Notes: generated from the letters alone by a model not told the origin. 64,000 nt of DNA from Mytilus trossulus (GCF_036588685.1 NC_086379.1:31744001-31808000), one strand, 5' to 3'; numbered from the stretch's first letter, positions 494 through 41,955 are shown. Translations and numbers: made by a program.

Positions 494-676
494 CTGGTAA
501 ATTGTTTCTGCTGTGTGTTTATATTCTTTATCGTTGGAATGTATGAAAGTTATCTTTTTCCAGTTGAAAGTTTTCAGAATTGACACAACACTTTGTGAGA
601 TCTGAGAATCTGTTGGTTTTGTCCTCCCAAATGTTGGATACTGGATCTTATTGCTCACATCAGACTCTGAACAATA
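494..676 (-). CDS. Gyc32E: Gyc32E-like guanylate cyclase, next coding exon (YCSESDVSNKIQYPTFGRTKPTDSQISQSVVSILKTFNWKKITFIHSNDKEYKHTAETIYQ)
   Basis: Acceptor TTTTTTCAG ends at 677; donor CAG|GTATAC at 493; 183 nt, phase 0-0. Joins in frame to the upstream exon to give MISY|YC...SNK..YPTF.RT.P.D.QIS.SVV..L..FNW, as in Gyc32E-type cyclases. Confidence 0.9.
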
Positions 677-1744
677 CTGAAAAAAATATATCTAAAGATC
701 AGAAAATCGCAAATAACAAAGGAGTATGGATTTTCAGGTAAAAGATTTTAAGAGATAATAAAAAATATCTATGACAGCAAATTTGACGATTATCCCTGTC
801 AGTGAAATTGAAATTGTTTTCAAAACAAATCTTAAAACAACTGAAAGTCAAGAAAGTCAACCAAACAATTTTTGTCAGTTTAAAGAAACAAAATGCAATG
901 AAGCCAGCACTAACCATAACAATTGTGTTATGTTTCTGTACTCACAACACGACATTGTGAGATAAACTTTATAAGTTACGATAGACGCCACAAGTTTTGA
1001 AAGTAAATAAATTAAACAATGTTGGAGAGCGCAGAAAGAACCAGAGCAGCAAATCCTATTTAAGGTTAACTTTGTCCCTAGGTAGCTGCAATCTAAGCTT
1101 CAACACAATTACATTATTTTATCAAAAGGAAATTGACAGTTCAAATGTATAATATGATTCATACCACTATTGAGACAGCGGCAACTAGACGATAAGCGTG
1201 TCGATAATTGCAAATAAACACACCGGTATTGTCGACATAACCCTTACTTGAAAATTGAAACTAGAGAAAAAAATTTGACTGTCTTTTTATATTCAAGAGG
1301 AAATATTTGTCATTTCCAAAGCGCCTGATTCTTGTGTAACTCAATTGTTTTTACAATAATGTCACAGTGTTTCCGTTGCTACATGATGGTATGATGTTAT
1401 TTCGTATCTATGTTGTAGTTTATCTTGTCATAAACGATTATCGATTTACAATAGAGCAATGTCATTGACATATGGTCTACTATTACAATAAAGAACCGTC
1501 ACTTATATTATGTCAAATAAAAACTAATAATCTCCCCAATGAACTGTGTAATAGAAAAGTCACAACGTAACTTCCTTATAGAAACCACAACATAAAATAC
1601 AAGAAGAAAAGCCAACGAAAAGAAACAAGCTAGGCGCTTATCTTGATTTACCATCGTCGGGAAAACATAAACTTAACAACTTAAGGAGCTATGAACAGGA
1701 TGAGAGTTTGTATGCTTTTACTTTTATAGCTAACAACGCACGAA

Positions 1745-1960
1745 ATTTATACCGCCGCTGTTTGACGGTTAGTCCTCGGGGATATCACCAGCGTAGAAGT
1801 CAGAGCTTCAAAAACGATACTGACATGACTTATGATATACTTAATAGTATATGAAATTCCCCGTTCAAAGATTAGTGAACAAATGTTGCAGACAAATTAA
1901 ATCATTCATAAATTTGGCTACTTATTTTTTTTAAGTCCTCTATGGACATAAAGCTCCCGA
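1745..1960 (+). repeat. Degenerate retrozyme fragment without the hammerhead
   Basis: GTCCTCGGGGATATCACCAGC...GACATGA is the reverse complement of the unit body near 5460-5520 / 5815-5868. Confidence 0.6.
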
Positions 1961-3272
1961 AATAAGACCCAAGCATTTTATTGAAAAGAAATTGGCAGAA
2001 AATGACTACATTCGCAATGATCGAAAAATAAATAAATAACAAAAAAAAGCTTAGAATTTTAAAATAGAAATCACCGGGTATTGTGCATTAAGGCGATATC
2101 TTTTTTGCGCCAAAAATGAATTCATTTGCACCACAACTTATTTGCGCAAATACTGCGTCAGCGCAACTATTTAAAAAAAACACTATATGCATCAATTTTT
2201 ACCATCAGAAAAATGAGTGGCACAATTTATACCCTTTCAGAACTGTAATTGGTGCAAATTAAGTATGCTTGTGTATTATTTCATGACATCGGGTCGCAAC
2301 ACAAACTTTACGACGGAAAAAAAAACTTATGCTAAAAGATCAATATGGCGGCCTCTAGCACTAATTTATAATAAGTGGAATTTTAGGTTAACATATCACC
2401 AAAAGTCTTGTTTCACTTTAAAAATATTGGAGAACAGTCATTTACTTATTATAAAAACACAAATTAATGGTATATCTATCCATGACGCAAATTAGAACAT
2501 GTACAAAAAAAACCCACACAAATAGCACTCTTATTATGTATTTTACGTCAGAGAAAAAACGAAATGTTTCTGTCGTTCTCTGGAAAGACGATGTTTTAAT
2601 GGTAATAACATTATAAGTAACAACTAAAGGAATGTGTGAGAAAAATTATTCAGAATTTAATTCAATAGAAGCAACAAAACAAATGTGGTAAACACACTGA
2701 TACAAAAAAGTACACGTGAAAGTATTCCTCCAATGTCTTTTGCACTCAATAAAAACATACTAATTAGTCTTAAACTAATATTTTGTATATATAATGGAGA
2801 CAGGTAATACCTTTCAACTGTTGAAAAAGACAAGATGCATGATAACTTAGTTTTCACAACCAACGAAAAGAAATAAAAATTGGATTCATATACAGTTTGC
2901 GATTGGACAAAAGCAATTACATAGTACAGTACATATATTGTATTTGCCTTTTTAAAACTTCGGTTGAAAACTTTTTAAATTTCTCATTTCCTTTTAAAAT
3001 CAAATGATTTACATAATTTTACTTTACTTTATTAAATGCATCCTTTATGTCAGCATACGTTTTTGTGAAGTAAAACTCCAGTTCAAACGTTTTGAAACCA
3101 AAGATGACGATAGAGTGAATACTTTAATCATCTCGCCTAAAATCAGAAATACTTTTATTTTCATTTATCATATGATTTGATTGGCTAAACCTTCTAATAT
3201 AAATTGATAAAAAAATGCTACTGAAAATACAAAAATTGAAAATCTATTCTAATTTGAGTTGGTTGCACTTCG

Positions 3273-3394
3273 TTTTTTTCAGATTTCATACTGGAAATTT
3301 CAGCATGCTGTCTTTTTTCAGATTTCATACTGGAAAATACAGCATGTTGTCTTTTTTTCAGATTTCATACTGGAAATACAACATGTTGTCTTTT
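3273..3394. repeat. Tandem repeat, 39-40 bp x3
   Basis: CAGATTTCATACTGGAAA at 3280, 3319 and 3359. Confidence 0.9.
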
Positions 3395-5230
3395 GAGAAC
3401 CAAATCAGTCAAGACTTAATGCAGCTTTCCATGATTATCATTCATATCTTTTCTTATGGATGACGTAATCTATCTTGTTAAATTTAGAACAGAAATAACA
3501 CTATTAGATAGCGAATACCGTATAAATGGTAATCAAATGATCCAAAAGCGTCATTATCTTGTAACAAATCTTCAAATAGTCAAATAACAATTGTGGAAAT
3601 AGACTTTTTGTTTTCCACCCAATATCGTGGATATGACAAAAGGGTAGTATGATATTGCATTAATGATTGTCATTGATACACAATTGACATAAGATCAAGG
3701 CCTTGAGAAAGCAAATAGGTTGCATCTCAACCAAAAGACAAGAGGAAAATCATATTAAGAAATACTTTTGTTTTTTATTTTACATATGTTATGAACGTTA
3801 TATTCAATGTTTATAAGTATTGAGAAATTCCCACGAATGTTAAACTAAAACACAAATCGCTGAGAACCCCGTTGAGAGCTAATATCTATAGGTATAAAGT
3901 TGCATTGACTTCTGTCTAAGCATGATAGCCTTTGATACCTATAGTAATGATTTTACCAGACAAAACATACTAGTATTTTTAGCCATCTGAAGGAATATGA
4001 CACGACCTTCATCATCAACGCTGAGACATCTCTTTAATTATAGAAAAGTAAGTATTTATGTTGGTTTTCTTGAACTGATATAACAACTGGAATAATAAAC
4101 TATCTTTAGAAGCAATACAATCAATTCAGGTTTATGTATTTCTAAGTGGGTGGTATATGCATTTATGACGTCTTTAAAATATCATAAGTAGAACATTCAT
4201 TGACCCATTGAATATAAAAAAAACATAAAAATGATCATATTTATCTGATGTTAAAATGAAGACTTAATCACTGGCAATTGATGAGAAAAAACTTTTATTT
4301 AAAAAGATAAAGATGAATAAATATTATGGGTCATGCATAATTATAAGCGTGAACAAATCATCACAAAATCTAAAACACATATCTTAAAAGTATTGCAACA
4401 AAACTATATGATGGACTCTTGATTAAAGATAAAAAAAATATTTCATTTCAGTTACGCCTCGCCTTACAGAATAAATATGAAAGTTGATAATAAAACAAAA
4501 GTTATTTGTGATATGCTGAGAAATCTATTTTGAAATTATATACTTTCAAGACTAATCAACATGCAGTTGATTAATGTTCCTATACATGTAGTTGTTTGAT
4601 TAACGCACAATGGCCAATACATCACGCATATTTAGTACGATATTCTGATAAAAAGATTATAAGGTTTCATGTAGTTAGGTTCCACAAATGAAATCGTGTG
4701 GATAGAAGCCCGGACATTTCGGACGGCCATTTACAACTGAGATGCTGAACGTTCTTACATAACGTAGCTATGAATTTATAAATCCCACTCAGCTAAACGA
4801 ATGGGTTGTTATTTAATTTACTTCAAACCCATTAAATTATGCAAATTTAATCTGTTGTATGACTGGTTCATGTACTTCCAAAAGAGGATCAATTAATTCA
4901 ATCAAGATGAAATTATATGAAATATTTCATAGTTGCATATTGACACAAAAATATTCTTTCCCCTTGATCCCTTTTATTTTAATGCGCTGAAAAATTCTTC
5001 CACCCAAATTGATGTTTTTACATAGTTTAAAGGGGGAACGCTAATTTTCTCGAGTATAACAATGATAACTTACAAAAATCTGAATAAAACCTGCAAAAGA
5101 ACGACAAGTGTTATTAAGTTGCTAACAATTGATTTTAATTTTGATGGATCACTTTACTTTTCCATTTTAAAAGCAATTAAATGAATTTGATTTATAATAG
5201 TTATCAAAAGTCCCTGGATTATAATTAAAT

Positions 5231-5274
5231 ACGCCAGACGCGCGTTTCGTATTCATAAGACTTGTTAGTGACGC
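5231..5274 (-). ncRNA. Type I hammerhead motif with mutated core
   Basis: Minus strand GCGTCA CTAACAA GTCT TATGA ATAC GAAAC GCGC GTC TGGCGT. Confidence 0.7.
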
Positions 5275-5586
5275 TAATATCAAAATAGCTATAAAGCCAA
5301 GCAAGAACAAAGTTGAGGAGCATTGATGACCCAAAATTTTCAAAAAGTTTTACCAAATACGGCTAAGGTAATCTATTCCTGGGATGAGAAAATCCTTAGT
5401 TTTATCGAAAAATTCAAAGTTTTCTAACAGGAAATTTATAAAAATGAACATATAATTGATATTTATGTCAACACCTAACTGATGTCTACTGGACTGGTGA
5501 TACCTTTGGGGACGAAACTTCCACCGGCAGTGGCATCGACCTAGTGGTGTAAATAGTTATCAAAGGTACCAGGATTATAATTTAAT

Positions 5587-5630
5587 ACGCCAGACGCGAG
5601 TTTCGTCTATATAAGGATCATCAGTGACGC
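5587..5630 (-). ncRNA. Type I hammerhead ribozyme motif (core intact, stem II weakened)
   Basis: Minus strand GCGTCA CTGATGA TCCT TATAT AGAC GAAAC TCGC GTC TGGCGT. Stem I is GCGUCA/UGGCGU; cleavage triplet GUC. Confidence 0.8.
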
Positions 5631-7361
5631 TCAGATCAAAATAGTTATAAAGCCAAACAAGTACAAAGTTGAAGAGCATTGATGACCAAGAATTCCAAAA
5701 AGTTGTGCCAGATATGGCTATGGTAATCTATTCCTGGGATGAGAAAATCCTTAGTTTTATCGAAAATTCAAAGTTTTCTAACAGGAAATTTATCAAAATG
5801 TCCATATTATTGATATTCATGTCAACACCGAAGAGCTGATTATTGGGCTGGTGATACACTCGGGACGAATGGATGTGGTTTTGAACCCTCCAAAAACTTT
5901 GAAAAGAAACATTGGTTTCTCACATATTAAAATCACTGTATACACCTCCGGATTATGTATTCGTTGGCTACTTCAAAATTATGATACAATAAATACTAAA
6001 ATCCAAAGTGTTTTGTTATTCAATATGAACGGGAACACATTTGTACAAAGTACATTGGAAAACAGCAACGATAAAACACACACATTTTTGAATGTAATGT
6101 TAATCCAAACGAAACGTCCTCTTTTCTAAATGATACTTGGAAAAATACACGATAAAGGATAACGCATCTCTTTTCATGGAAGCATAATTGTTTGTCGGCC
6201 GTTTTATTGTTGAAATGTCAGTGTCCACACAGACAACCATGGAGAATGGAATCTGTTATGTAACACTTGGCATATAGAAACATTATTATATCGGTCGAAT
6301 TGAAGAACAACGTGGAAAACTTGATCATGGCATTAGATACGATATGCTATAACCAACTTGTTTTTATGCAATATATATGTGCAATTTAAATATTTATTTT
6401 ATGAATTTTTCTTCCTGTTTTTCTCATTTTGAAATGAATGACTTAAGGCACGAGACCCAATTGACTGAACTCTACAACTAACGGGTTAACGAATGATATA
6501 CCAAACAAATTCAACTGCACTTGCATTTCCTCTGATGCTCAGTTTGAAAAGATCATAATAGAACTATAGCTTTTATGTAATCTTAATATCAAATGCATGA
6601 TTAATTGAAAAAAATCTTTTCATTTCCGTTCAGTATCCAGTAGGTACTGTGAAAATTTAACCAATTACTAAAAGCCACCTTTTGGAAATTTCAATTACAA
6701 CTTTCATCCGCTTGTACAATATATTGCGTAAGTAATTATTGGAAACTTATAAATTGAAGTTCATGTAAGCAATTTATAAAACTGCTGTGATTTATTCCGT
6801 GTATGAAATTTATTAACACAAAAGATGACGTTCCGATATAAATAGACATACATTTTCTATAAAGCTATGAACTGATGAGCAATATCTTAATTGACATCTG
6901 AAATAGTTCTAAAAATCTAAGCATTTCCGCTAGAAAATGGAAATATAAGTTTAGTATGGATTTGTATATGTCTGTTGCAGGATTATACAATATAAAACAG
7001 TTATATGTATGGAAAAGTACATGTGCTTATTGAAAAATTGAAAGAGTTTAAGATCAATTTCAATTTCTAAGATTTCAAACCAATCACAAACCCTTTAAAA
7101 GATTTTGATTACTTGCACATAGCAAAAATGACAATATGATACCTACAGTACTCTATGTTTGAAACAATTGTCCCAACAACATAGATGTTAATCTAATGCA
7201 ACACTTGTTTTGATTGTCATTATATTAAACTGATCGCGATTAATTACAATTCGCTTAAGCATTTCGACACATGTGTCATGAAAGTGATCTCAATCTTTAA
7301 TTTAACCTTGTAAAAAGGATTGTCTTAAAAGATCAATTCGAATTATAGAATTCATTTAAAT

Positions 7362-7496
7362 ATTAAATGAAAATAGTCTTTGCACATTAAATGAAATGAA
7401 AATAGTCTTTGCACATTAAATGAAATGAAAATAGTCTTTGCACATAAAATGAAATGAAAATAGTCTTTGCACATTAAATGAAATGAAAATAGTCTT
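7362..7496. repeat. Tandem repeat, 29 bp x~4.6
   Basis: ATTAAATGAAATGAAAATAGTCTTTGCAC; TGCAC at 7381, 7410, 7439 and 7468. Confidence 0.9.
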
Positions 7497-8340
7497 AACA
7501 ATCACCGACTGAATGTTTAAGGAAATACAATCAGTGTCTATAATTGACTTGTTATCTGAATGTCAAAGTTTGGTTATGATGACAAAAATGTCTTCCCTCC
7601 AAACTTTACAAGAAAATGTTTTGAACAATAGCTTAACAATATTTTTTTTTCTATATATAATGTTATCTTATTATTTCCTTTTAAAATAAGAAAAGAGAAA
7701 AATTGCAAGCTATTGAACCAAAATACTATTTATTTCCTTTTGAATGTTTATGTCACAGAAATATGGACATGCTTCGTACACTGTATATAGCTAGACCATC
7801 GAAGTCAAGAGAAATGTACAAAACCAGAATTGAATGCTTCAGCTGTAAAGATTAACAATTTCGTAATTAAAATTAATAAGCAAATTTTAAGAACAATTAT
7901 ATTGATGCGAATGAATATATTGGTTGATTGGTTATTTGGTGTTAACGCAACTATTTGCTAATATTTACAGACATATTTTATTGGTGAATGAATTTTACGA
8001 ACACACATAATAAGTAAAAAATTGATTCCTGAAGAAACTAGACACTTTTGTCCAGGTAATTTGGGATTGTAGAGAGCTCACAAACATGTCTAACCGCACC
8101 ACATTGTTTATCTAAAAATAAGTAGATTTAGTATGATATACAACGAGACAATGATCCATAAAAGTGCAAATGAAGTACATGTAAGCCTTTATAGGCAACC
8201 GTACGGCCTTTATCAATTAGGGAAAATATCCCAACGGCTATAAAAGACCCTGACATGAAAAATATGAAATAGTTCAATTTAGAAATCAGGGTAACAGTTA
8301 GAAGACTTTTGAAAAGGGACCCATGCTTAAATGGGTTTAA

Positions 8341-8720
8341 TTATTAAATATTCGAAAGAAACCATCAGATATAAATTCAGGAATTCGATATACCAGATAA
8401 AAGATAACCCAAATCCATTGAAATCACTCGTAATATTTCCAATGACTCCAGATTACCTTCGTTATACAAATGAAGATAAATTGTAAGACAAACTAAATAA
8501 TAATCATAATAAAAAACAACAAATAGTAAGTTTGAATTTTGGCAATTTTTTGTCATGGATTTATTAGGACAGTTCAACTATATATCAACCGGCCTATGAA
8601 TTTGCATTCATCGACAATGTATCATTAATGTCCAAGATAAAAACATAGAAGGGCAACCATCATATGTTTTCTCCAAATGGCAACTGGGCTACCAGACGCC
8701 AACTGTAATAAATTCAGCCA
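8341..8720 (-). repeat. Split direct repeat B2 (380 bp), 3' end of the element
   Basis: Identical by eye to 9048-9427. Confidence 0.95.
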
Positions 8721-8838
8721 TTCAGTAAATCAATACATTCAGATCATATTCTGTCCAATCCATGACGCTTCTTTAACGATATCTGAAAATATACAACAGA
8801 GAGCAGAAAATATTCTCAAGGGTGGGATAGGGTGGGTT

Positions 8839-9047
8839 TTGTGTTCCTTCAGTTGAAATCACGCAATGAACAAATCACGAAAAGCATGCAATTTTATACC
8901 AAATAAAAGCGGGAAAACCGCTTACGAAATTATGTAGATAAACAAAAGACGCTCAAGTCCTTCAAAATTAAAGAAAAGATAACTCTAGTTTAGCAGACGA
9001 TAATCTTAATTTATTAAATTGATTTAATGCTTAATGATTAAATCTTA
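8839..9047 (-). repeat. Split direct repeat A2 (209 bp)
   Basis: Identical by eye to 14897-15105; abuts B1. Confidence 0.95.
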
Positions 9048-9427
9048 TTATTAAATATTCGAAAGAAACCATCAGATATAAATTCAGGAATTCGATATAC
9101 CAGATAAAAGATAACCCAAATCCATTGAAATCACTCGTAATATTTCCAATGACTCCAGATTACCTTCGTTATACAAATGAAGATAAATTGTAAGACAAAC
9201 TAAATAATAATCATAATAAAAAACAACAAATAGTAAGTTTGAATTTTGGCAATTTTTTGTCATGGATTTATTAGGACAGTTCAACTATATATCAACCGGC
9301 CTATGAATTTGCATTCATCGACAATGTATCATTAATGTCCAAGATAAAAACATAGAAGGGCAACCATCATATGTTTTCTCCAAATGGCAACTGGGCTACC
9401 AGACGCCAACTGTAATAAATTCAGCCA
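9048..9427 (-). repeat. Split direct repeat B1 (380 bp)
   Basis: Identical by eye to 8341-8720 (offset 707; the same 66-aa ORF appears twice in the ORF track). Confidence 0.95.
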
Positions 9428-9565
9428 AATGCTAGCAAACTTGTTTGTAAGCATCGCCAAACAAAATTTATCAATCCATGACAAAAAATTAACTTTAACA
9501 CACAAAACAAATTAAAAATTTAGGTTTTGAACAAACATATTAATTGAACTGAGTTTAACAACTAA

Positions 9566-10604
9566 ACATTAGTTCGTCGAAGTATATCAACTATACTAGA
9601 CATTAGTTCAACGAAGTATATCAACTATACTATACAACAGTTCAACGAAGTATATCAACTATACTATACAACAGTTAAACGAAGTATATCAACTATACTA
9701 TACAACAGTTCAACGAAGTATATCAACTATACTATACAACAGTTCAACGAAGTATATCAACTATACTATACAACAGTTCAACAACGAATATCAACTTTAC
9801 TTACAACAGATCAACGAAGTAATCAACTTTACTATACAACAGATCAACGAAGTAATCAACTTTACTATACAACAGATCAACGAAGTAATCAACTTAACTA
9901 TACAACAGATCAACAAAGTAATCAACTATACTATACAACAGTCCAATGAAGAGTATCAACTAAACTATACAACAGATCAACGAAGTAATCAACTTTATTA
10001 TACAACAGATCAACGAAGTAATCATCTTTACTATACAACAGATCCACGAAGTAATCAACTTTACTATACAACAGAACAACGAAGTAATCAACTTTACTAT
10101 ACAACAGATCAACGAAGTAATCAACTTTACTATACAACAGATCAACGAAATAATCAACTTTACTATACAACATATCAACAAAGTAATCAACTTTACTAAA
10201 CAACAGATCGACGAAGTAATCAACTTTACTATACAACAGAACAACGAAGTAATCAACTTTACTATACAACAGAACAACGAAGAATATCAACTATACTATA
10301 CAATAGTTCAATGAAGAATATCAACTAAACTATACAACAGATCAACGAAGTTATCAACTTTATTATACAACAGATCAACGAAGTAATCAACTTTACTATA
10401 CAACAAATCAACGAAGTAATCAACTTTATTATACAACAAAACAACGAAGTAATCAACTTTACTATACAAAAAAACAACGAAGTAATAAACCATACTATAC
10501 CACAGATCAACGAAGTAAAAAACTTTACTAAACAAAACATCAACTAAGTTATCAACTTTACTTAACAAAAGATTAACGAAGTAATCAACTTCACTATACA
10601 ACAG
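9566..10604. repeat. Minisatellite of ~31 units of 33-34 bp (CAACAGATCAACGAAGTAATCAACTTTACTATA) inside the Ngaro element
   Basis: Tandem array seen directly; 34-bp variants on the left, 33-bp variants on the right. Confidence 0.95.
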
Positions 10605-10799
10605 TACAAATATAAACAACGTGCACAGCAAAAATAAGATTTTAAAACTTTGTATTTACAACTAACAACAAAACTGTTGTATATTCAACAGAGCTGTTCA
10701 ACTTGATGCATTAGTTTAACAAATGAAATAAATTATTCAACTGACATACGACTTCATGTGTCCATGCACGATGGCTTGCAACTTTAAATAGGTTAAAAT

Positions 10800-10995
10800 T
10801 CATTTGGGTATAAAAATCTGTTTGGATCTTAATAAACAACTCTAATGCTGACTGCATAGCATTAATAAAAATGTCACTGCCAATATATGACAGATTCGCC
10901 ATGATCAGCGAAAAGAGTTGGGTGGATATCATCAAAATCAGTATGTTTAATAGCCTTGCCCCCAACTTTGTGTAAGTAAGATCTAACCCCCTTTG
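10800..10995 (-). pseudogene. C-terminal remnant of the SGNH-hydrolase ORF known from Ngaro elements
   Basis: GVRSYLHKVGGKAIKHTDFDDIHPTLFADHG/(frameshift)NLSYIGSDIFINAMQSALELF resembles the D-G-V-H-L-S..G block V region of SGNH hydrolases. Confidence 0.65.
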
Positions 10996-11720
10996 TTTAA
11001 AACAGTCTGAAACTGAAATCTTGACAATGATTTCCCATTTATATGGCAAAAATGAGGACCATCATATCCAGGTCTTATTTGCAAAAAGGCTTTCAAACTT
11101 TGTAGAGGACAAATCTCATTTGATTCATTTTTATTTATTTTACAACTAAAGTAGTGGATCTCCCTTTTTGATCAGTTTTGAAAAAAATAAAATAAAATAT
11201 TTTAATAAACAGCTAATTTAAGATGGTCAATATAAACATCCCGCCTATGTAAAACATGCTCTTGCATAACATTCGTTGTAATGGCAAATTCACTCACACG
11301 TAAAAATGCAGCAAGCGAAGTTAAATGCTGTTTGAAACAATATTGTTTCATAATAAGAGCACACGTGCCTCAAAGCCACATTTAATCTAATCAATATCAA
11401 TGGTCAAAGGTGCCCGAAGATCTTAAGAATTGTAAAGTCTATTACAACCACCCAAAAGTTTCTGAATGATAAAAGATTTAGTTAAATCTTCATTCCCTTG
11501 AATTTTCAATTTGTAACTTATTCCAGATATATATGATCTAATTGTAACGATGAATAATGATTTAGTGACAAAAAACCAATGTAACCAATAATTTGTCTGT
11601 TACTTGGTGGCCAACTAAGGGGAATAGAATATTCCATCCTGAACATATTGAACGAATGCAATGCATTTTTATAAACATTTCTGGTACTTTGAGAAATTGA
11701 ATAATTCAACAATTTTGAAG
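10996..11720 (-). pseudogene. Tyrosine recombinase, N-terminal and middle part only
   Basis: SISQSTRNVYKNALHSFNMF; KTDQKGRSTTL; ICPL..LKAFLQIRPGYDGPHFCHINGKSLSRFQFQTVLNK. No downstream HSFRIGAAT / GRW / catalytic Tyr motifs were found. Confidence 0.8.
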
Positions 11721-11749
11721 CTTCTATAACAAAAGATCTAAGAACTCAT

Positions 11750-13200
11750 GTAGAATAGTTTGTGGCGTCCGGTCGGCATTGCGCGTTACTTCTCTGAACT
11801 TCTTCATCTGTCCACGAGATAAAGCATCAGCAATAAAATTGTTTTTGAAAAAATATGCAACGCTTTAAATTAAAAATTAGATAATAATGTCCACAAAACT
11901 ATTTTTCTTAACAAAAAAAAAAAAAAAAAAAAATAATCCTATCATTTTTTGAAGATTTTGATTTAAAAATGTAACAACAGCCATATTATCACAATGAACA
12001 ATTATATTCTTATTCATAAACCTTTGTTTCCATAAAAAGATGGCCAAAGCAATAGGTATAATTTCCAATTAAGTAATGTCACTTAATAAAACTTTGCCCC
12101 AATTATGGCCATTGTAAAATTGCCCATGGTCCATTTAAATAAGCTGCACAAACCAGTGAATGACCACCTGCACTGTCAGTATACAAATGTAAATCAGCAT
12201 TTTAAACCCAATTCAAATCTTGGATATATGTTTAGCCATTAAAACATATTGCCACATATGCAAATCATCTCGTATTCCTTTGGTCAATCTTATAAAATGA
12301 TGAGATATTTTAACATTTTTTAAAAGAGCCAAATAGATGCCTCATAAATGCCCTTCTGGAGGGAAGAGCCCTTGCACAAAAAGCCAATGAACCTGTTAAA
12401 GACGCACTTCTTTCAGAGTAACTTTTCTTTTGCTATAGGAACATCCAAGTTTGAGCAAACTTTTGAAAATGCAGTCGCAAGACAGAGACAGTCATCTTTA
12501 TGAGCTTCTCCAACAAATATAAAATCATCAAGATAATGATCCAAATTTCATAATGCGTTTTATTTTTAACTGACCAATGCAAAAGGTTGAAAATTTTTCA
12601 AATGTAGCACAACTAATAGAACATCCCATGGGCATTATTTTTTGGATATAGTAAAGACCATTTAGTTTCAGATACCTAGTAAATCAAAATCACCAGGATA
12701 ACATTTAAGTAAAGGAAAATGCCGATTTAATATTCATATTTGCCATTAAAGCCGAATTCTCCATTTGTTTTACAATTTTGACTGCATTGACAAATGATGA
12801 ATAAGTGACGTTGATAAACTGAGTATCAATAAAATCATTGATACTTTCATTTGAAAGTAAGACAAATAAGTTATCAATCGAAGTCCACCAGTTTTCTTAG
12901 GAACTAAACCAATAGGAGAGCACCGAAGATTTGAAATAGGTTTATGTTTGAATGGGCCTGCCATTCGACCTAATGATATCTCATTATTCCACTTCTTTTG
13001 AGCTTCAAAATGGTTTTTCAAAACAGACAACAAATTTCTATATTCACAATTCACATGAACGTGTAGACCTAATGAATTTTAAAACCATATTTAAATCCAT
13101 TCAAAAGTTCAACAGCGCATTGCTTATCATGATATAGTTCCAGAAGCTTAGAGAGTTCATTTACATTAACCGGAGATGTTCATAGGGCCCAAATATTAAA
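11750..13200 (-). pseudogene. Ngaro reverse transcriptase / RNase H, disrupted
   Basis: GRMAGPFKHKPISNLRCSPIGLVPKKTGGLRLI; HYLDDF at ~12521-12538; RNase H motifs LYTDSAGG, EIIPIALAIFLW...HCDNMAVV and NFIADALSR. Several frameshifts and stops. Confidence 0.88.
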
Positions 13201-13229
13201 CTGGTCTGGATGTAGTTCTGAAAAATTAT

Positions 13230-14179
13230 AAATTATCTTTGCTTAAAACCTCTTTTTTGGTTTTGTCTATTAGCAGAGTTGTTAACAAAACGTGAAATGT
13301 TATTTCTCTTAAACCTAGATGGACCAGTATTACATTCATAGTCCATAAAGCAACGACAGCATAAAGCAGGATGATTAAAACCACATTTGAGACATGCATG
13401 CCTGTATGGGCAAATGCGTTTATTGGAAAAACCTTTAAAATTAAAATCACAGCATTTATATCCAACATTAGCCTGCTGTTGTTTTTGAGTATTGTTAGTT
13501 AAAATACGCAACAACAAAAAATAAATAAAAATCTATGGATGACTGTATGATCCCTTGATACAACTCAAACGAAATTATTGGTCATAAGAATACCATTTTT
13601 CGACAGGATGATCAGCCGCTGCACCGCTTATGATTGACATATATGAGAAAAGTTCACTTGCTTTTCCCGGATACCTTTCAATAAGGACCTGGACACAAGC
13701 AATACAACCATCAGTCCAATCCTCAACATAATTAACAGTATGGTTTTTCTAAACTTTGTTTTGTATAACCAGCATACCGTCATTAATTTCAATGGTGTTT
13801 TCATTTTGTTTGACTGTTGAAATTGTTTTGATGCATTAGGGACAAATCAATATATTCAATGCAAAAAAATTTTCCTTAAGCTTTTGAGTTATCAATATAA
13901 CAACCTCATTAAAACCAGGCAACATAGAGGTTCATCAAAAACATCAATAACCTCACCTAAGGCAGCTAATTCAGGTTCAATCTCTTGAATTCTACATCTG
14001 GTTGCAAGGCAACTAGTCGAGGTTCATCAACCCTCCGTCGTCTTACTACAGGGGCATCTTGATCAACTTTGGGACGCCTTTTTTCATTCCAAATGGTGGT
14101 TGAAGTTGTTCCCTGGGAGCCATTCTAAGACGAAGTCTAACCGTGCATGCCGACGACGCCTGCCTCTACCTCTTGGCAT
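13230..14179 (-). pseudogene. Ngaro gag-like ORF1, frameshifted
   Basis: Starts MPRGRGRRRRH. Contains KWYSYDQ*FRL (W..YD..FR motif, ~13570-13600) and a Cys/His knuckle CCDFNFKG..NKRICPYRHACLKCGFNHPALCC. Confidence 0.75.
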
Positions 14180-14896
14180 TGTTATAAACTATTATAATTA
14201 TTAAAACAGATTAGCTACATACATCAAGTCTTGAAAGCCAATTCATCTTTCAAAATATAAATTCAACTTCTTATTCTCTCATTCAAGTTAGATAAATAAA
14301 ATACCACATATAACCCACTACGTTGTCTTAAATAAAATTAATATATATTTGAATGCATTAAACAACTGAAGTTGGTAACAAAACACAATTAAAACAAGTG
14401 CAATGTTCCTTCAAACCAAATATAACGTCGATATAAACGATAAGTTAAATTAACAAGCTTATTTAATTATCCGCAAATCAAAAAACTTATAAAAGATGTA
14501 CGTGTAACAAATTAAACATTAGCGGGCATGTAAATGTTAAAACGGCTTACACTACAAACATGTAATTACCTGTTTAAAGAATATCGCTCATACATTACAA
14601 TCAAAACAAATATATCACCTGTATTAAAGCATTTTAAATTTAATGCTATTCAATGATTAATATATGTGTGCACAAATGTAACTATTAAATAATAGTCTAA
14701 TCAGTATAAATGCTATCCAAGTAAGCGATACATTGAATTAAGAATCAAAATTTTTGCAAGAACAACTTTCAAATAAAATAGAATTATTCTTTATAAATTA
14801 CAGAAATAAAATCTTTCGGAAAATTCAACTGCAACAACTATATCAATTTATCACTAAAACATATGAACTTATCTTATGTCTGAATCAGCCTATCCC

Positions 14897-15105
14897 TTGT
14901 GTTCCTTCAGTTGAAATCACGCAATGAACAAATCACGAAAAGCATGCAATTTTATACCAAATAAAAGCGGGAAAACCGCTTACGAAATTATGTAGATAAA
15001 CAAAAGACGCTCAAGTCCTTCAAAATTAAAGAAAAGATAACTCTAGTTTAGCAGACGATAATCTTAATTTATTAAATTGATTTAATGCTTAATGATTAAA
15101 TCTTA
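14897..15105 (-). repeat. Split direct repeat A1 (209 bp)
   Basis: Identical by eye to 8839-9047. Confidence 0.95.
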
Positions 15106-15313
15106 GTAAAAAAAAATCCCGATACACTGGTAGTAATAATCTGAATTATAGGCAACAAACTTCTAAATATGAGCGATGTTCAATCTTGAAATTTATTACG
15201 TTATGTCGGTTGAAGGAATCACCTTTCATTATAATGTTAAGAGTCTTAAAATCAAGATATTAATGTGTTGAATTATTCAACTAATGAATATTCATTAGTA
15301 ATTTGCATATTAA

Positions 15314-15472
15314 TCTCAGTGTGTATTTTTGAAATCTCATTGTGTAGTTAACAATTTTCAGTGTATGTTTTGCAATTTATTTCACCTCAGTGTGTCTTTT
15401 TAAAATCTCAGTGTGTAATTTTGAATTATCAGTGTGTGTTTTTTATTTTTTTAAATCTCAGTGAGTATTTTT
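15314..15472. repeat. Degenerate ~21-bp tandem repeat (CTCAGTGTGTATTTTTGAAAT)
   Basis: About 7 recurrences of TCAGTGTG-like units. Confidence 0.75.
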
Positions 15473-18400
15473 TCCAAAAACGGATTTAAACATAGTTTTG
15501 ACGAGAACGGCTTGCCATAAAATAACTTAAAAATTACAAACTAAGGTTTACCTAAACTTTTTCCTGATCATATTAACAGCAACACTAATATATATAGGCA
15601 GATTGTATTGTCTCAATACAAACGTAAAGCAATTTCCCCACGTCAAACTTTCGTGTACGAAATTCTTAACCTGTAAATTAACTTAGTCTATTTTAGTGTA
15701 CAGTAGATACGGTTGGCTATATTTGTAATGGCAGTGCGAGTGCCTCATGATTCGATCTTCCGAGTGTTATCAAACGGTGTCTTTATGTAAAAGCTTGTAT
15801 GTCATGTCTGACCCAAGGTTATCGTTATTTTTCTTTTACAATGCCTATAAAAGTCCACTGCTTCATAAATCATTCCGACGATTTAATCGTCTGCCTACAT
15901 TAGTTTTACAGGAATGGTTCGTAGTTATACTGACCCCTTGTAACTTATTTTGATGTCCAAACACCATAAGCATTCTATCACATGAAACCGGAAGTTAATT
16001 ACTTTGTTGAAGTAATCTGAGTTATCAAAACATTTGTTACAATCGTACTGGATTGTGCAGACATTTGTCTTATTTATATAGTCTTCAGAACAGACAAAGA
16101 TCATCAAAAGCCAATTAATCATTAAAAACCGATACGTTGTGATAATTTATATCATAAACCAAGAAAAATTTAATTAATCGTTTCCGAGTGAGAAAACATT
16201 TAAATCAATTTAGAAAAAGTTGTATGTATTCCTTAAAGTATTTTCGTCCAGATAAAGCGGTTACTCACATTTGCACTGTTACTAATCAGTCTATTTTCTA
16301 AAGGCTTTATAAGCAGTAAACTGTAGCTGGAATATCTCAAGTGGTTTTTAGCCAATTATTGTTCCGAACCAAAGAGTTATAATGGTTCCTGTATTCTATA
16401 ATAGCTAATCCTGTTAAATCACTGAAACGAAATGTATTGTACAAAGATGTTCTTATATCAAAGTTAATGTTTGCATTAGACGGGAGGATATTATCAAAGT
16501 AAAGTCAATTGCATTTAGTAGAAATAGTCATTCAGTAAAAATAATTCTTACTATGAAAGTAAGAAGATCTAGTATGATAATTTTCATGATCAACTCGATC
16601 TTTACCAGTGACAAAACAACTTAGATTTACATAAACGTTTTCGTAAATGTGAATTATACTAAAATCTAAACTCTTCAATAATTATAAAAAATAATTATCG
16701 CATGGCATGTTGTCATGTATCTTTTATATTTCTGTTAGTTCACATTTTAAAGGGAACCATTAACAGATCAAATATGGTCAGTAAACAATGCAAGTTTAGA
16801 CAAGCTTAATATTAGTTTAGCTATTGATAAAATCGATCTCACAAGGATACTCATGGGTGCTATCAAAAGTTTACAATAGACCACATCATGGCCATCAGCA
16901 ACAATTGAAAAAGGACAATAAGGGTTCATATACCAGCAACAAAACATTAAATTTAGCAATCCAAATGTCATAAAAAAATTAAGTTGATCTCGCGGAAATC
17001 AGAAAGGTAAAAAGATTTCTTCTTCGGTTGAAGGTCGTCGTGTTGTTGGGGCAAAACAAAATCAGATAATTAATGTTTTTTAATTTTAATTTAATTTTTT
17101 ATGAGGAACAGAGAACGGTATAAATCGTATACACCGTATGTGTATCTCAACGGTTAATTTTGCTTCTTAGATTTCTTGGTGTTTAATGCCATTTTCAGAA
17201 TATTGCGCCTTTTCTGGGAAGTCATTTTTAATAGGTGTAGAAAGCTAGAGTTCCCAAAGAGAAAATATAAGTTAAATAGGAAAATGGACAGACCGTGCAA
17301 GGGCTGTATAGCTGCAAGATCGTTAAAAACTTCCATAGGACAATTTACAATCCCAGTCAATTAAGATTGAGTCGAAAGCACCAAAGCGTACTGAGTTCAA
17401 ACTTACAACTCACTGTTAATAGGCTATTGATACAGTAGTGTCAGTTACTTAAACAAATTGAACTAAGTTCATCTACATTACAGATTTATTTTCATATTAG
17501 TCAAGTATCCTTTATTAAAAAAGACAGGTTTCCTATATGGTCTCAAGGATTGTGACCGGATTTATTTCTGTTCAAGAACAATTAAAAGCTGAAAATAGTG
17601 TGCCGACTTTCTTTAGGCAAAGGGTTTTGTTATCTTTGTTCTTTACTTTTAAAAATACGTATCTGGTTCCCTTGGCGAGTCAAAAATCATTTAGATTTTT
17701 CAAACATCAAAATTGCGTGTATTGTAACCGTCAATCGGTACATGAATTATATACTCTTTTTGGTCTCTTGAAAGCTTTCTCATTGACAATCATATCACAT
17801 CTTTTTTTTTATAGTTACAATAAATCATTTTAACACAAATTGAATTTCTCTCTACTTTTTGAATTTCGGCTGTTTAAGGTAAGTAAAAATCTCGTATGTT
17901 TTTATGTAGGTAAAATGTTTGGCACCTAGTCAAAATAATAACAGATAATTAACGCAAAATGATTCCTAAATTTGATTTGACTTCTTTGCTTTGGATAATT
18001 GATTCATATGTATATGACAGATGTTGTCCATTCGTTTGATGTGTTTGAGCTTTTGAGTTTGCCATTTGATTAGGGACTCTCCGTTTTGAATTTTCCTCGG
18101 AGTTCAGTATTTTTGTGATTTTACTTTAAACATCGTGAAAGGTTTAGTAGTCAACTTATCTTGAGTTTTTTTTATTACTCAGATTCCTTTTTTGTAATAT
18201 ATATCGAAATATCTGATTTATTTTTTCCCTGCATATCTGATTTTCATTATTTTTCATTTTACTAATTGTCTAGTTCTGAATGGCTTACTTCCTATAATCT
18301 TGGGTAATATTCTCTTGAAAGAATTGTTAATGGCCTCCACAAATCAATTAAACACGACTTTTAAAATGTAAAACTGATCCGTTCTTATTTTATCTTTGCG

Positions 18401-21135
18401 AATTTACTGAATAGAAAATCAACCTAGTTATTGAATTTTTTACATTTATTTACAAACCCCATATGTCTGATAGAAGTGGAAGACATGCAAATGTAGTAAT
18501 TTAAGATAATGTCAATCAGCGCATCTTTATTTGACATAATACGTTAGAAATTTCAATTTCCGAGAATTCGAATTCAATTCTGAAGTTTGTATCATGATCA
18601 GTCATAGTAATAGGAATTCACAAGAAAATCACTTCCCAATGAATACAAATACCAAATATTAATATCCGTACGTAGAGTTCAACACTTAACGTTAAGCTAT
18701 CAATTTGCTTTTAAGTTTAAAGAATATTTTCACTTAAAACTAACTTTATCACCATGTAAGTATATGTATCCCAGTTTATTATCAAACAAATCATTCTTTA
18801 ATCGGATAAACTTACGCTCGAAGTTACTGTTCGGTGGCTGAAGTCTTAAATTGTAGATGTAATATATGGAGACTTATATAGTATCACCCTAGTTAAACTA
18901 CTTATATCTGACCTTGCCGATTATACTAAATTACACGAGTCTACGAATTGTAAAAAATAAACGGAGGAATTTTTTAGAACAGAAGAAATTATGCAAACAT
19001 GACTTATTTTGTTTTTATTTAGAAGGCTTTAAAAAGATAGAAATATTTTAATTTTTAAGCTATCTGTTTCCATGAATACTTAACTAGTTACTGACAGACA
19101 TCACAAACTCTTAGCTTTTTAGATCTTTTAAAATAAAAAAACCAATTGATATCATTGTAGACAAAAAAAAAGGAAATAATTATTATGGGGACGAAGTCCC
19201 CAATAACAATAGAAAAATCAAAAAAAAATCAAAAAAAGCCCAAAATGTTCATTGTACTAAGAACTCAAAATCGTTCATTTTATTTAAGGTCATGTTTTGA
19301 ATTCCTGCATTTGCGCAGAAATCTACAATGTTCTTCCCTTATCCGGTCTCGTTTGTATGAAACTTTGAGTAAAATATATATTTATCAGTCTAGTATAAAA
19401 TAGGAAGAAACGCAATACCAATTTCATTTTTAATAATTTCTTGATATGAAAAACGTTACCTGATGATAGCGTTTCTTTGTTTACATTGCATAAGTCGTCA
19501 TAACTTAAATAACTTCACAACTTAAATCCAACAACAGAACCAAAATCGGAAACGGTATTTCCGTTTCTTTTTTTTTTTAACAAATATTTAAGATACAAAA
19601 AGAAATTCATACAGACTTTGTTCCCATTTACAGGTAATGCCTGCCTCATATTATAATGCTTTTTAGTAATATTAATGACAGGTTGGCACAGTCAAAAGAT
19701 GACTATGATATTGATGATATTTAATCGACGGGGATTTCAAAGGGGAATGAGAAACTTCAGTCAAAACTGAAAAGCAAAACTATAATGTCTCATTGGCCAC
19801 ATCTTTTTTTTATATTTCATATTGACATATATGATATATGTTACACTTTATAACTTAAGTAAAAGCTGTTGTAAAACATCAATGAAACAAGAAAAAATAT
19901 CCAATTAACATATTTATAAGGATTTTCTACAATGTATGTCTAATTCAGAATCATTACGTATGAAATTGGTTCTACTTCTAACGCAATTAAGTCTTTATGT
20001 GAGTAGAATAATAACCCATAAAAACGTGATGATAAGCAGACGATTTATAATAAAAATACATGTTCTTAAACTACTCATGATAACAAAGGCTACCCAAAAG
20101 ATTTTACGGTTTTATGTCAATGTAAAATTAATAAAATTGTTTGATGCGCTGAATTTTCATTATGATTAAATGCTTATTTTGTGTATATTTATAGGATGAT
20201 TGTACAAAAATGAGATGTGTGATAGTTGGCAATATAGAATCTCCAAACAAATATTCCCGGTAAAATATAATTATGATTCGACTGTTTTAATGACAAACGG
20301 AAATTAATTTGTTAAAGTGTGAGATACATATCTCGTCATAGACAAAAACCATATAATTAAAGAACATCAGAAAAAATGACAAAAACTTATATTTATCATT
20401 ATGACGGAAAGCCATAAAACATATCTATAGAATAACAATTAGAAGCCCTGTTGTTGCATCTCATCAAATGAAGAAAAAAATATGACAACGATGTTATAAT
20501 GCCACGTATTTCTGGTGTTATCAGGAATGATTGAAATCAAACAAACCGTTATATATATGATTTCCAAATTTTTAAGCGAATGTAAACATGCAAAAAAGTA
20601 TAAAAATCACTGATCACATTATCAGAGGAAGTTGTCGCAACTGAACAAAAAATAGTAAGACTAGTCTTTATTTGTGCAAAAAATACTGAAGTTAGATATA
20701 ATTTTTCCTGTGTTTTTTTTGTGTCTCATTGACACATACACAGCATATATCTTTGATTGTACATTGATTTTCTAATAATAAAATGAAATACATGTATATC
20801 CTAAATCCAACAACTAGTCAACAATTGAAATCTCTATTATGGATCTGAGGACAGGGGGCACTTGAGGTCATTTGATGTGTAATGTGTTTAATGTTTTGTT
20901 TTACGTAAATATAAATGTCATCATTATATTTTTGTTCATACATATAATTGTTATGCCTTTGACCCTCTTGCATGTCTTATGGGTGTAAATTGTACTTTAA
21001 GTTAGTAAAGTTAGATAACTGCAGGTAGTGCCACTTGTTTTAAATCGTAATTTGTCGATTAGCGTTGAAATAAATCATATATATATATATGTGTAAATCC
21101 AGTCTACTTCTAACATATTGAGACCATTCCAAATT

Positions 21136-21222
21136 TCGTTACTGATAAGTATTTTGTGGACGAAACGCGCGTCTTGCGTTAATATAAAACGTCAATCCTG
21201 GTATATGTGATGCGTTTATTTA
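21136..21222 (+). repeat. Retrozyme fragment with degenerate hammerhead
   Basis: TCGTTA CTGATAA GTAT TTTGT GGAC GAAAC GCGC GTC TTGCGT...AATCCTGGTA. Confidence 0.75.
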
Positions 21223-21539
21223 TGTATATTCATTCATTTGCTTTTGCCAACTATTATTTCTAGTACACAAACAGTTCATCGAAAAAGGTACGTAGAACAT
21301 GTATTTTCTATTTAGTTAGCCACAAATAGTAATAACATACTAAATAAAATAAGTAACATATGAAAGGGGACAAAAAAGTGACTGAAAACCCAATGGTTAA
21401 ATGCAGAGAAGACACAATGACAAACATGAGTCCTTCAAAACACCACACACACACTTAGTTGTGCATGTTTTGCGTGTGATTTCATCTTTCAGTTTTCCTA
21501 GTGGTGCATATACTTTACATTAGATAATAAATTACTTAC

Positions 21540-21905
21540 ATATGAAATCATCGGAAGATTGAATGCAGAAGCTATCCTTCCTTCGTGTATACATGTTTCC
21601 TGAGGTCCGATATAAACGGAAATATTATGTTTTAATAATTCCACTGTTTGGCGAATACTCTCCTTTTCACTACCATATGTTTCTGCAGATGTGAAAACTA
21701 GCATATGATTTGGTAATAATGTTGAGTCTGAATTAATTTCGTCCAATGCAAAGGTTAGTGCACCTGATATAGATTGACCAGGGCGCTGGTAATATTTACC
21801 TAATTGTTCCGATCCGGTTAAATATCCTAAACGGATAACGTCACTTCCAAAAGTAAATGTCACAAATCTATAACACATTACCAGAAAATAAATAAAATTT
21901 ATCAT
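21540..21905 (-). CDS. Gyc32E: Receptor-type guanylate cyclase (Gyc32E-like), first coding exon: signal peptide and start of the ANF-receptor-type ligand-binding domain
   Basis: MINFIYFLVMC...GYLTGSEQLGKYYQRPGQSISGALTFALDEIN...AETYGSEKESIRQT...YIGPQETCIHEGRIASAFNLPMISY matches recalled insect Gyc32E motifs (GYLTGS, RPG.TISGA, AETYG, YIGPQETCVHEGR.AAAFNLPMISYYC). Hydrophobic N-terminus. 366 nt ending at a GTAAGT donor (21539-21534), phase 0. Confidence 0.9.
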
Positions 21906-21962
21906 TTTCGTTAACTTTCATTATCCATATATGCAATCACAACATTATTTCTGTAGCTTCAT
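21906..21962 (-). other. 5' UTR part of the first coding exon, implying an unlocated upstream non-coding exon
   Basis: Pyrimidine tract plus AG (TTTATTTTTCAG) ends at 21963; an in-frame TGA lies just upstream of the ATG at 21905. Confidence 0.55.
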
Positions 21963-25130: not shown

Positions 25131-25212
25131 CTAATGAATGATCCCATGTTGTAGACGAAACGCGCATTTGGCGTATAAAAATTTAATCCTAGTGAATATA
25201 ATGAGTTTCTTT
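25131..25212 (+). repeat. Retrozyme fragment with degenerate hammerhead
   Basis: CTAATGA...GTAGACGAAACGCGCATTTGGCGTA...AATCCTAGT. Confidence 0.65.
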
Positions 25213-41488: not shown

Positions 41489-41955
41489 TAAATAAACTCA
41501 TTATAAATACCAAGTTTGAACTTTTGTATTAACGCCAGACGCACGTTTCGTCTACAAAAGGTTCATCAATGACGCACGAATCCAAAAAAATTCAAAAGGC
41601 CAAATAAAGTACGAAGTTGAGGAGCATTGAAGACCAAAATTCATAAAAGTTTTGCCAAATACAGCTAAGGTAAATAAAGGCAACAGTAGTATACCGCAGT
41701 TCAAAACTCATAAATCCACGGACAAGAAACAAAATCGGGGTAACAAACTAAAACCGAGGGAGACGCATTATATATAAGAGGAGAACAACGACACAACACT
41801 GAAATATAACACACACAGAAACGGACCAAGCATCAGACAAAATCCCACGAGAATAACAAATATAACATCAAAACCAAATACATGAATTTGGGATAGTATT
41901 TGAACCATGACACGTCTTATCCCTGAAGTAGAAAAGCCTTAGTATTTTAAAAAAT
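41489..41955 (-). mobile_element. Retrozyme copy (hammerhead 41532-41575, C3>T) interrupted by a nested insertion at 41674-~41914
   Basis: Minus strand GCGTCA TTGATGA ACCT TTTGT AGAC GAAAC GTGC GTC TGGCGT. The unit motif GCTAAGGTAA|TCT.ATCCCTG...CCTTAG is split by an ATAAAGGCAACAG-family repeat. Confidence 0.75.

What the first reader, a model, noticed from the sequence alone, without database searches (positions are those of the whole stretch)
5196..5868. 356-bp tandem retrozyme with type I hammerheads in the sense strand of a host intron
Seen: two hammerhead motifs exactly 356 nt apart, with stem I GCGUCA/UGGCGU, a minimal stem III around a GCGC palindrome and a GUC cleavage site. Established knowledge: metazoan non-LTR retrozymes, including in mussels, are short tandem repeats whose hammerheads release monomers that circularise, and palindromic stem III allows dimeric cleavage. 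These copies read in the same direction as the cyclase pre-mRNA, so active ribozymes would cut the intron and excise a 356-nt monomer. One copy has a mutated core and the other a broken stem II base, consistent with decay or selection against cleavage.
Basis: partly seen in the sequence, partly recalled or inferred. Interest (0 to 1): 0.7.

Follow-up and report, generated by a model that had tools for sequence, protein, structure and literature searches.

The report
Decayed mussel retrozyme carrying Naiad signal
This is a damaged, likely inactive copy of a very common mussel repeat, likely the family already shown to cut itself into small RNA circles, sitting in an intron of a guanylyl cyclase gene; the repeat carries a predicted RNA hairpin shared with Naiad jumping genes, which likely supply the enzyme that copies it.

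Summary
5196-5868 is 1.9 units of a 354-356-bp repeat with two type I hammerheads 356 nt apart, sense within a 20.9-kb intron of a receptor guanylyl cyclase. Copy B has G5A and G8A; copy A has two broken stem II pairs and has lost the palindrome. The genome holds 11,856 exact intact motifs, so this is likely one decayed copy of the published Mytilus retrozyme. Excision of a circle here is unlikely. Selection against cleavage is not supported: hammerheads changed no more than the rest (9/88 vs 41/481, p=0.55), and an orientation test in 1.36 Mb of genes was inconclusive (9 sense, 17 antisense). The interesting part is the family: arrays stop at a fixed 3' end (26 of 35) about 7 nt before a predicted hairpin that also starts Naiad Penelope-like elements, in the same register, with compensatory changes; a retrozyme-only model finds Naiad junctions and none of 11 other Penelope-like loci. 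Naiad reverse transcriptase is the likely helper; my paper searches found no such report. This scan noted the Naiad link before on other DNA.

The parts
5196..5868 (-). Retrozyme insertion, 1.9 units (674 nt), 90% identical to the family majority sequence; 5'-truncated at 5868, canonical 3' end at 5196
5587..5630 (-). Hammerhead copy A (first in the pre-mRNA): core intact, stem II pairs 10.1-11.1 and 10.2-11.2 broken, stem III palindrome lost; site after 5593
5231..5274 (-). Hammerhead copy B: G5A, U7C, G8A and a stem II mismatch; palindrome and GUC site (after 5237) intact
5237..5592 (-). 356-nt site-to-site monomer that an intact pair would release
5488..5545 (-). Naiad-type bulged hairpin (predicted copy-start signal), itself carrying five changes in this copy
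   Evidence: model hit 5475-5558, 76 bits; sequence
5829..5868 (-). 3' half of a second hairpin, where the insertion is 5'-truncated
   Evidence: 17 bits, E 0.066
5196..5205 (-). Family's fixed 3' end (monomer position 41 after the cleavage site); no target-site duplication found
677..21539 (-). Host intron (20,863 nt, GT-AG, phase 0) of a receptor guanylyl cyclase gene
494..676 (-). Downstream exon, ANF_receptor positions 79-139
21540..21917 (-). Open frame holding the upstream exon, ANF_receptor positions 4-89 (exon start not determined)

Best explanation
This is a 1.9-unit, 5'-truncated copy of a mussel hammerhead repeat inserted in the sense direction in a guanylyl cyclase intron, with both ribozymes mutated, likely by neutral decay, so it likely neither cuts the intron much nor releases a circle; it was likely copied in by the reverse transcriptase of a Naiad Penelope-like element. 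Steps. (1) Published for the likely same family: tandem transcripts self-cleave, monomers are circularised, circles accumulate. (2) Shown here: arrays end at a fixed point about 41 nt after the cleavage site and about 7 nt before a bulged hairpin; Naiad copies end about 7 nt before the same hairpin. (3) Inferred: the Naiad enzyme binds the hairpin, nicks AT-rich DNA, starts cDNA just 5' of the hairpin and runs round the circle (or along a multimer); here it fell off inside the hairpin on the second round, giving 674 nt. (4) Shown: each unit has since drifted about 7%, hitting both hammerheads and the hairpin. (5) Inferred: the locus is a dead passenger.
For: 11,856 intact motifs; unit 350-356 nt against 350-390 bp published. 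Lesions: 9/88 hammerhead positions against 41/481 elsewhere, p=0.55; chance that both copies are hit in 13 critical positions 0.40-0.47; 8 of 14 other copies at 6% or more divergence are broken too. Hammerhead fold energy -5.7 (family) against -1.1 (A) and +1.4 (B) kcal/mol. Fixed end: 26 of 35 array ends at positions 39-48; loose ends pile at 5548-5553 in 4 of 4 DNA runs; 12,253 copies of the 28-mer before the end against 7,040 across it. Naiad: 1056-aa frame with N-terminal GIY-YIG and DKA; 17 of 29 non-tandem rows end within -2..+7 of the junction; model built from retrozymes alone hits 5 Naiad junctions (E 4e-4 to 4e-3) and 0 of 11 loci of C-terminal-endonuclease elements; 6 of 20 pairs change on both sides, 4 in the outer helix; the motif stands at or near the start of 12 of 54 published Naiad consensus sequences, from bivalves, hemichordates and a fish; four hammerhead repeat families here carry it. 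Internal initiation 5' of a protein-bound RNA region is shown for another Penelope-like element (PMC11167929).
Against: No cleavage assay; copy A's core is intact and mismatches at 10.1-11.1 are tolerated in some natural ribozymes (PMC3088659). Identity with the published family was not tested by sequence (supplement unreadable). Plain alignment of monomer and Naiad unit scores only 41 against a shuffle maximum of 40, and controls reach 35; the model's E-values are rough; the covariation rests on one Naiad lineage and a fitted alignment. Shared sequence shows ancestry, not current use. A 575-nt hammerhead array lacks the motif. Young copies look scarce in genes (0 exact motifs against 12.4 expected copies, clustered), which leaves room for selection at insertion. 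Target-site duplications are mostly absent.
Confidence: 0.75

Rival explanations
1. Selection removed ribozyme activity because cleavage of the sense intron would harm cyclase expression.
For: All three sense-strand hammerheads in this gene are damaged (two here, one in L032). Fast intronic ribozymes block splicing (Fong 2009 as cited in PMC10919898). Retrozymes are depleted from Xenopus introns (bioRxiv 10.64898/2026.07.22.740005). Antisense insertions outnumber sense 17 to 9, intact ones 3 to 1.
Against: No excess of changes in the hammerheads (p=0.55). Orientation p=0.17, and ribozyme-free Naiad fragments lean the same way, 10 to 6. A sense two-hammerhead insertion with unbroken cores sits in a dynein intron (L213). 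At the published 0.1/min only 11-28% would be cut before the next exon is made (with borrowed polymerase speeds); slow ribozymes had no effect.
Confidence: 0.12
2. The locus is still partly active: copy A's intact core cuts its own site, or site B through a double hammerhead, or the abundant family circles cut the intact GUC sites in trans through the palindromic stem III.
For: Copy A keeps all 11 core bases; both GUC sites and stems I are intact; predicted stem III duplex -7.5 (A with B) and -13.3 kcal/mol (family with B); circles are abundant in mussel tissue.
Against: Copy A's stem II has two pairs left and its predicted pairing probability is 0.0 against 0.33-0.36 for the family; the family lacks the loop contacts and is slow even when intact; the family circle is predicted to hold its hammerhead unfolded.
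Confidence: 0.08
3. The repeat descends from a Naiad end but is now copied by another enzyme (a hammerhead-bearing Penelope-like element or a LINE), or spreads mainly as satellite DNA.
For: Intact C-terminal-endonuclease elements with their own hammerheads coexist; long arrays with higher-order periods exist; Xenopus retrozymes resemble ends of such elements.
Against: Fixed 3' end in the Naiad register with variable 5' ends; hairpin kept in four diverged repeat families and not found at 11 other loci.
Confidence: 0.15

Closest known systems
Mytilus galloprovincialis non-LTR retrozyme (Cervera and de la Pena 2020, PMC7229834; read parts 2-4 of 6; supplement unreadable)
   Same: Type I hammerhead in tandem units of about 350-390 bp, thousands of copies, low GC, a second family of similar ribozyme sequence; their construct is a 353-nt unit.
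   Different: This copy is mutated in both ribozymes. In the parts read, the paper names Penelope-like elements only as strong candidates for the helper and reports no fixed 3' end or Naiad motif.
Naiad Penelope-like elements (Craig et al. 2021, PMC8557442; passages, section 6, supplement passages and metadata sheet)
   Same: 5' truncation, partial tandems, fixed 3' end; same hairpin in the same register; the element here matches the start of their Mytilus consensus nearly letter for letter.
   Different: The repeat encodes no protein and carries a hammerhead, which Naiads are reported to lack; Mytilus Naiads have an extra 24-nt stem-loop inside the hairpin that the repeat and oyster Naiads lack.
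Poseidon element of Anolis carolinensis (Frangieh et al. 2024, PMC11167929; abstract and whole main text)
   Same: Copying starts inside the RNA, near a protein-bound region, at AT-rich DNA; genomic ends mark the start sites.
   Different: Autonomous, C-terminal endonuclease, two start sites; no sequence likeness tested.
Xenopus retrozymes related to Penelope-like element ends (Li et al., bioRxiv 10.64898/2026.07.22.740005; parts 1-3 of 5; supplements not seen)
   Same: Non-autonomous derivatives of element ends; depleted from introns; most tested dimers inactive (8 of 9).
   Different: Vertebrates only; Naiads not linked to retrozymes; no strand analysis or start signal in the parts read.

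Membership tests
Metazoan non-LTR retrozyme | Type I hammerhead in each unit | tested here: met
   Family copies score 33 bits on Hammerhead_1; both window units hold a recognisable but mutated motif
Metazoan non-LTR retrozyme | Short tandem units of 150-450 bp, GC under 50%, many copies, no protein | tested here: met
   350-356 nt, GC 0.39; 11,856 motifs; only short stop-to-stop frames, at most 115 aa, overlap it
Metazoan non-LTR retrozyme | Self-cleavage and circular RNA | not testable with these tools
   Published for the mussel family; only contigs were available; predicted lost at this locus
Active retrozyme (two complete hammerheads in tandem) | Both motifs complete | tested here: not met
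   Copy B G5A and G8A; copy A two stem II pairs broken
Published M. galloprovincialis family | Sequence identity to the cloned circles | not testable with these tools
   Supplement too large; inferred from size, motif type and the Mytilus-type Naiad in this genome
Non-autonomous partner of Naiad | Shared terminal cis element in the same register | tested here: met
Non-autonomous partner of Naiad | Intact autonomous Naiad in the same genome | tested here: met
   1056-aa open frames at many places; N-terminal GIY-YIG, DKA, RT motifs
Non-autonomous partner of Naiad | 5'-truncated insertions with fixed 3' end | tested here: met
Non-autonomous partner of Naiad | Mobilisation by the Naiad protein | not testable with these tools
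   needs biochemistry
Viroid-like RNA with ribozymes in both polarities | Hammerhead on the opposite strand | tested here: not met
   No plus-strand ribozyme hit; the look-alike at 5493-5519 is the reverse of the hairpin and lacks A6, stem I and stem III (sequence)

The most novel reading that the evidence does not exclude
Mussel retrozyme circles are specific parasites of the hammerhead-less Naiad clade: a bulged hairpin conserved at the start of Naiads from bivalves to hemichordates and a fish is the docking site of the reverse transcriptase, copying starts about 7 nt before it, and a circle is the ideal template because the signal always lies just past the start. This would name the helper of an animal circular-RNA retroelement and give a portable signal for writing circular RNA into DNA.
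Probability: 0.6. Interest if true: 0.68.

Novelty: new variant of a known kind. Interest (0 to 1): 0.47.

Why it matters
The locus itself is ordinary: one dead copy among thousands, with no sign of an effect on the cyclase. The family anatomy matters more: which enzyme copies animal retrozyme circles is open in the papers read, and Naiads were set apart as lacking hammerheads. A shared hairpin at a shared distance from the insertion end makes a named enzyme, a 60-nt RNA signal and a start nucleotide directly testable. Paper searches behind 'not reported': retrozyme+Mytilus, retrozyme/Penelope/target-primed (29), Naiad+retrozyme (47), Naiad/Penelope-like/non-autonomous/hammerhead (58), Mytilus+Naiad+repeat (91); the library lacks most subscription papers, Repbase notes and unread supplements.

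Tried and rejected
Rfam at gathering score over the window: 0 hits. A 29-nt match between the repeat's 3' end and some Naiad 3' regions looked like a shared terminus; it is a tiny nested retrozyme insertion, absent from the sister unit in the same element, and was dropped as evidence. Opposite-strand hammerhead: rejected (core and stems missing). Target-site duplication at this locus: none (best 5 nt; 1 clear 14-nt case among 35 arrays). Sequencing runs: no RNA holder listed; contigs could not show expression, cleavage or circles; no empty site seen; one contig of another organism label bridges the 5868 junction, one contig of run X1 matches copy B's lesions but may be the assembly's own sample. 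Folding in context gave stem I probability 0 even for the family sequence, so it does not separate active from dead copies except for stem II. Orientation test: 32 rows, 7 of them one array, so the raw p of 0.02 was discarded for 26 insertions, p=0.17; gene spans were taken from domain pairs and not checked for nested genes. Background sample: 12 of 30 loci dropped, and the 18 kept include repeated arrays and two second-family copies. Rfam has no family for the hairpin. Search for a paper with all core mutants gave 0; that G5A and G8A inactivate hammerheads is recalled, with G8C shown inactive in PMC11167929 and seen as a listing only. Look-ups of earlier notes by sequence and by place gave nothing.

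Full report
Observation. The stretch 5196-5868 is a direct repeat with spacing 354-356. On the minus strand it holds two hammerhead motifs, 5587-5630 (copy A) and 5231-5274 (copy B), whose cleavage sites lie 356 nt apart. Both keep stem I and the GUC site. Copy B has G5A, U7C, G8A and a stem II mismatch; copy A keeps the 11 core bases but has lost the first two stem II pairs and the stem III palindrome. Rfam barely sees the damaged copies but scores intact relatives at 33 bits, E 6e-5.

Host. Two minus-strand exons match consecutive parts of ANF_receptor and join in frame across a GT-AG intron of 20,863 nt. Kinase-like and guanylate cyclase exons follow on the same strand beyond the window. 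The insertion is therefore sense in a receptor guanylyl cyclase intron, 4.6-4.9 kb before the next exon. The same gene holds another sense copy (L032, also mutated at G5 and A9) and three older antisense pieces.

Family. The genome holds 11,856 exact intact 34-nt motifs, 0 for the reversed control, in dispersed arrays of one to more than fifty units. Units are 350-356 nt, GC 0.39. This fits the Mytilus galloprovincialis retrozyme: about 5000 motifs, 350-390 bp, cleavage at about 0.1/min from a single cloned repeat, abundant circles (PMC7229834). I could not compare sequences; the Naiad of this genome matches the published Mytilus consensus start, so the host is likely a Mytilus mussel.

Is this copy active? 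Likely not. Releasing the monomer needs two cuts. G5 and G8 are catalytic core bases (recalled; G8C abolishes cleavage in PMC11167929). The ribozyme fold costs -1.1 (A) and +1.4 (B) against -5.7 kcal/mol for the family. Residual activity of copy A is not excluded, since some natural ribozymes tolerate a weak stem II (PMC3088659 passages); a double hammerhead using A's core on B's site is possible on paper (duplex -7.5 kcal/mol).

Decay or selection? Hammerhead positions differ from the family at 9 of 88, other positions at 41 of 481 (p=0.55). The two units differ by 14.7%, about 7% each; at that level both would be hit in a critical base with probability 0.40. Of 14 other copies at 6% or more divergence, picked on another motif, 8 are broken (12 of 30 loci dropped, some rows share an array). 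In 34 dynein and myosin gene spans, 1.36 Mb with known strand, I found 26 insertions of four hammerhead repeat queries: 9 sense, 17 antisense, p=0.17; with a ribozyme 3 to 7; intact 1 to 3; ribozyme-free Naiad fragments 6 to 10. Young copies seem scarce in these genes (0 exact motifs against 12.4 expected copies, which cluster; 2 exact ends, both antisense, against about 5.5), in line with intron depletion in Xenopus. So selection at the level of insertion is open, but nothing points to selection on these two ribozymes. Even an intact copy would cut only 11-28% of transcripts before the next exon is made (borrowed polymerase speeds), and slow intronic ribozymes were reported harmless (Fong 2009 as cited in PMC10919898).

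How it got there. Arrays have variable 5' ends and a fixed 3' end: 26 of 35 end at positions 39-48 after the cleavage site, as does this one (position 41, base 5196). Independent of my locus sample, contigs from 4 of 4 DNA runs leave the repeat at that point into unrelated AT-rich DNA, and the 28-mer before the end occurs 12,253 times against 7,040 for the 28-mer across it (polymorphism not controlled). This is the pattern of target-primed reverse transcription from a set start.

The helper. Among loci fetched for GIY-YIG, elements with a 1056-aa frame, N-terminal endonuclease and DKA motif (Naiad; definition) begin with a sequence like positions 48-105 of the repeat. Both fold into the same bulged hairpin. 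Naiad copies end about 7 nt before it (17 of 29 non-tandem rows, 14 of 25 after merging overlaps, within -2..+7), the repeat 5-7 nt before it. A covariance model from 12 retrozyme sequences alone finds 5 Naiad junctions in 4 loci at E 4e-4 to 4e-3 and nothing in 11 loci of C-terminal-endonuclease elements (completeness of their ends not checked). Six of 20 pairs change on both sides, four in the outer helix (fitted alignment, one Naiad lineage). Exact-string searches of Craig et al.'s supplement show the core motif at or near the start of 12 of 54 Naiad consensus sequences: 8 bivalves, 3 hemichordate families, 1 fish, with other paired sequences in the stems by eye. Four hammerhead repeat families in this genome keep it; a fifth, of 575 nt, does not. 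Plain alignment alone is weak (41 against shuffle maximum 40). For a Poseidon element, copying starts inside the RNA near a protein-bound region and genomic ends mark the start, which supplies the mechanism by analogy. Binding and mobilisation are inferred, not shown.

Prior knowledge. The retrozyme paper calls Penelope-like elements strong candidates; a 2026 preprint links Xenopus retrozymes to their ends; Craig et al. say Naiads lack canonical hammerheads and wonder whether hammerheads parasitise these elements. My five searches found no statement of the Naiad link. I reached it; one search then showed that this scan had noted it on other DNA several times. Those notes are unchecked and not independent support.

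Verdict. Observation confirmed; interpretation partly supported. The locus is an ordinary decayed passenger (about 0.9); the Naiad helper model is likely (about 0.65-0.7 for use, higher for ancestry). Interest 0.47, carried by the family-level signal, not by this intron.

Noticed in passing
window 1725-1810 (+): A diverged copy of the Naiad-type hairpin (24.9 bits, E 3e-4) in the same intron, antisense, not part of the 355-bp family; likely an old related element.
   Followed up: partly
window 41532-41673 (-), 25961-26004 (-), 25150-25193 (+), 21137-21211 (+): Further short fragments of the hammerhead repeat families; 25961-26004 is only the last 44 nt up to the fixed end.
   Followed up: partly
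window 18012-18127 (+): Naiad 3' end fragment stopping at the canonical Naiad end.
   Followed up: partly
L085 825-888 (+): Weak twister-P1 match (20 bits against cut-off 67, E 0.11) in the conserved Naiad 3' region about 110-170 nt before its end; pseudoknot pairs not convincing by eye.
   Followed up: partly
L080, L081, L085 550-578; L107 748-776: A Naiad subfamily carries a 28-29-nt retrozyme 3' end inserted in its own 3' region and has spread with it.
   Followed up: yes
L285 about 1200-4750 (-): 575-nt tandem repeat with seven intact type I hammerheads, antisense in a myosin intron, without the Naiad hairpin; the same ribozyme occurs in L096, L112, L114. Possibly another helper.
   Followed up: partly
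L022-L025 (G000:C1:36012540-36015342), L135-L137: Arrays with a three-unit higher-order period, from a trimeric template or later DNA-level duplication.
   Followed up: no
L126, L145, L130: Third and fourth hammerhead repeat families with different ribozymes but the same hairpin about 40-50 nt after the site; the paper reports two families.
   Followed up: partly
L213 (dynein intron): Sense two-hammerhead insertion with both cores unbroken and a shortened unit; a better candidate than this locus for intron cleavage.
   Followed up: partly
window about 10700-13900 (-) and 9552-10604: Broken frames resembling a tyrosine-recombinase retroelement, and a 33-34-bp minisatellite, inside the same intron (resemblance recalled, not tested); 8331-8856 is duplicated at 9038-9515.
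   Followed up: no
L091, L113, L114: Minimal type I hammerheads beside C-terminal-endonuclease Penelope-like elements, unlike the retrozyme's.
   Followed up: no
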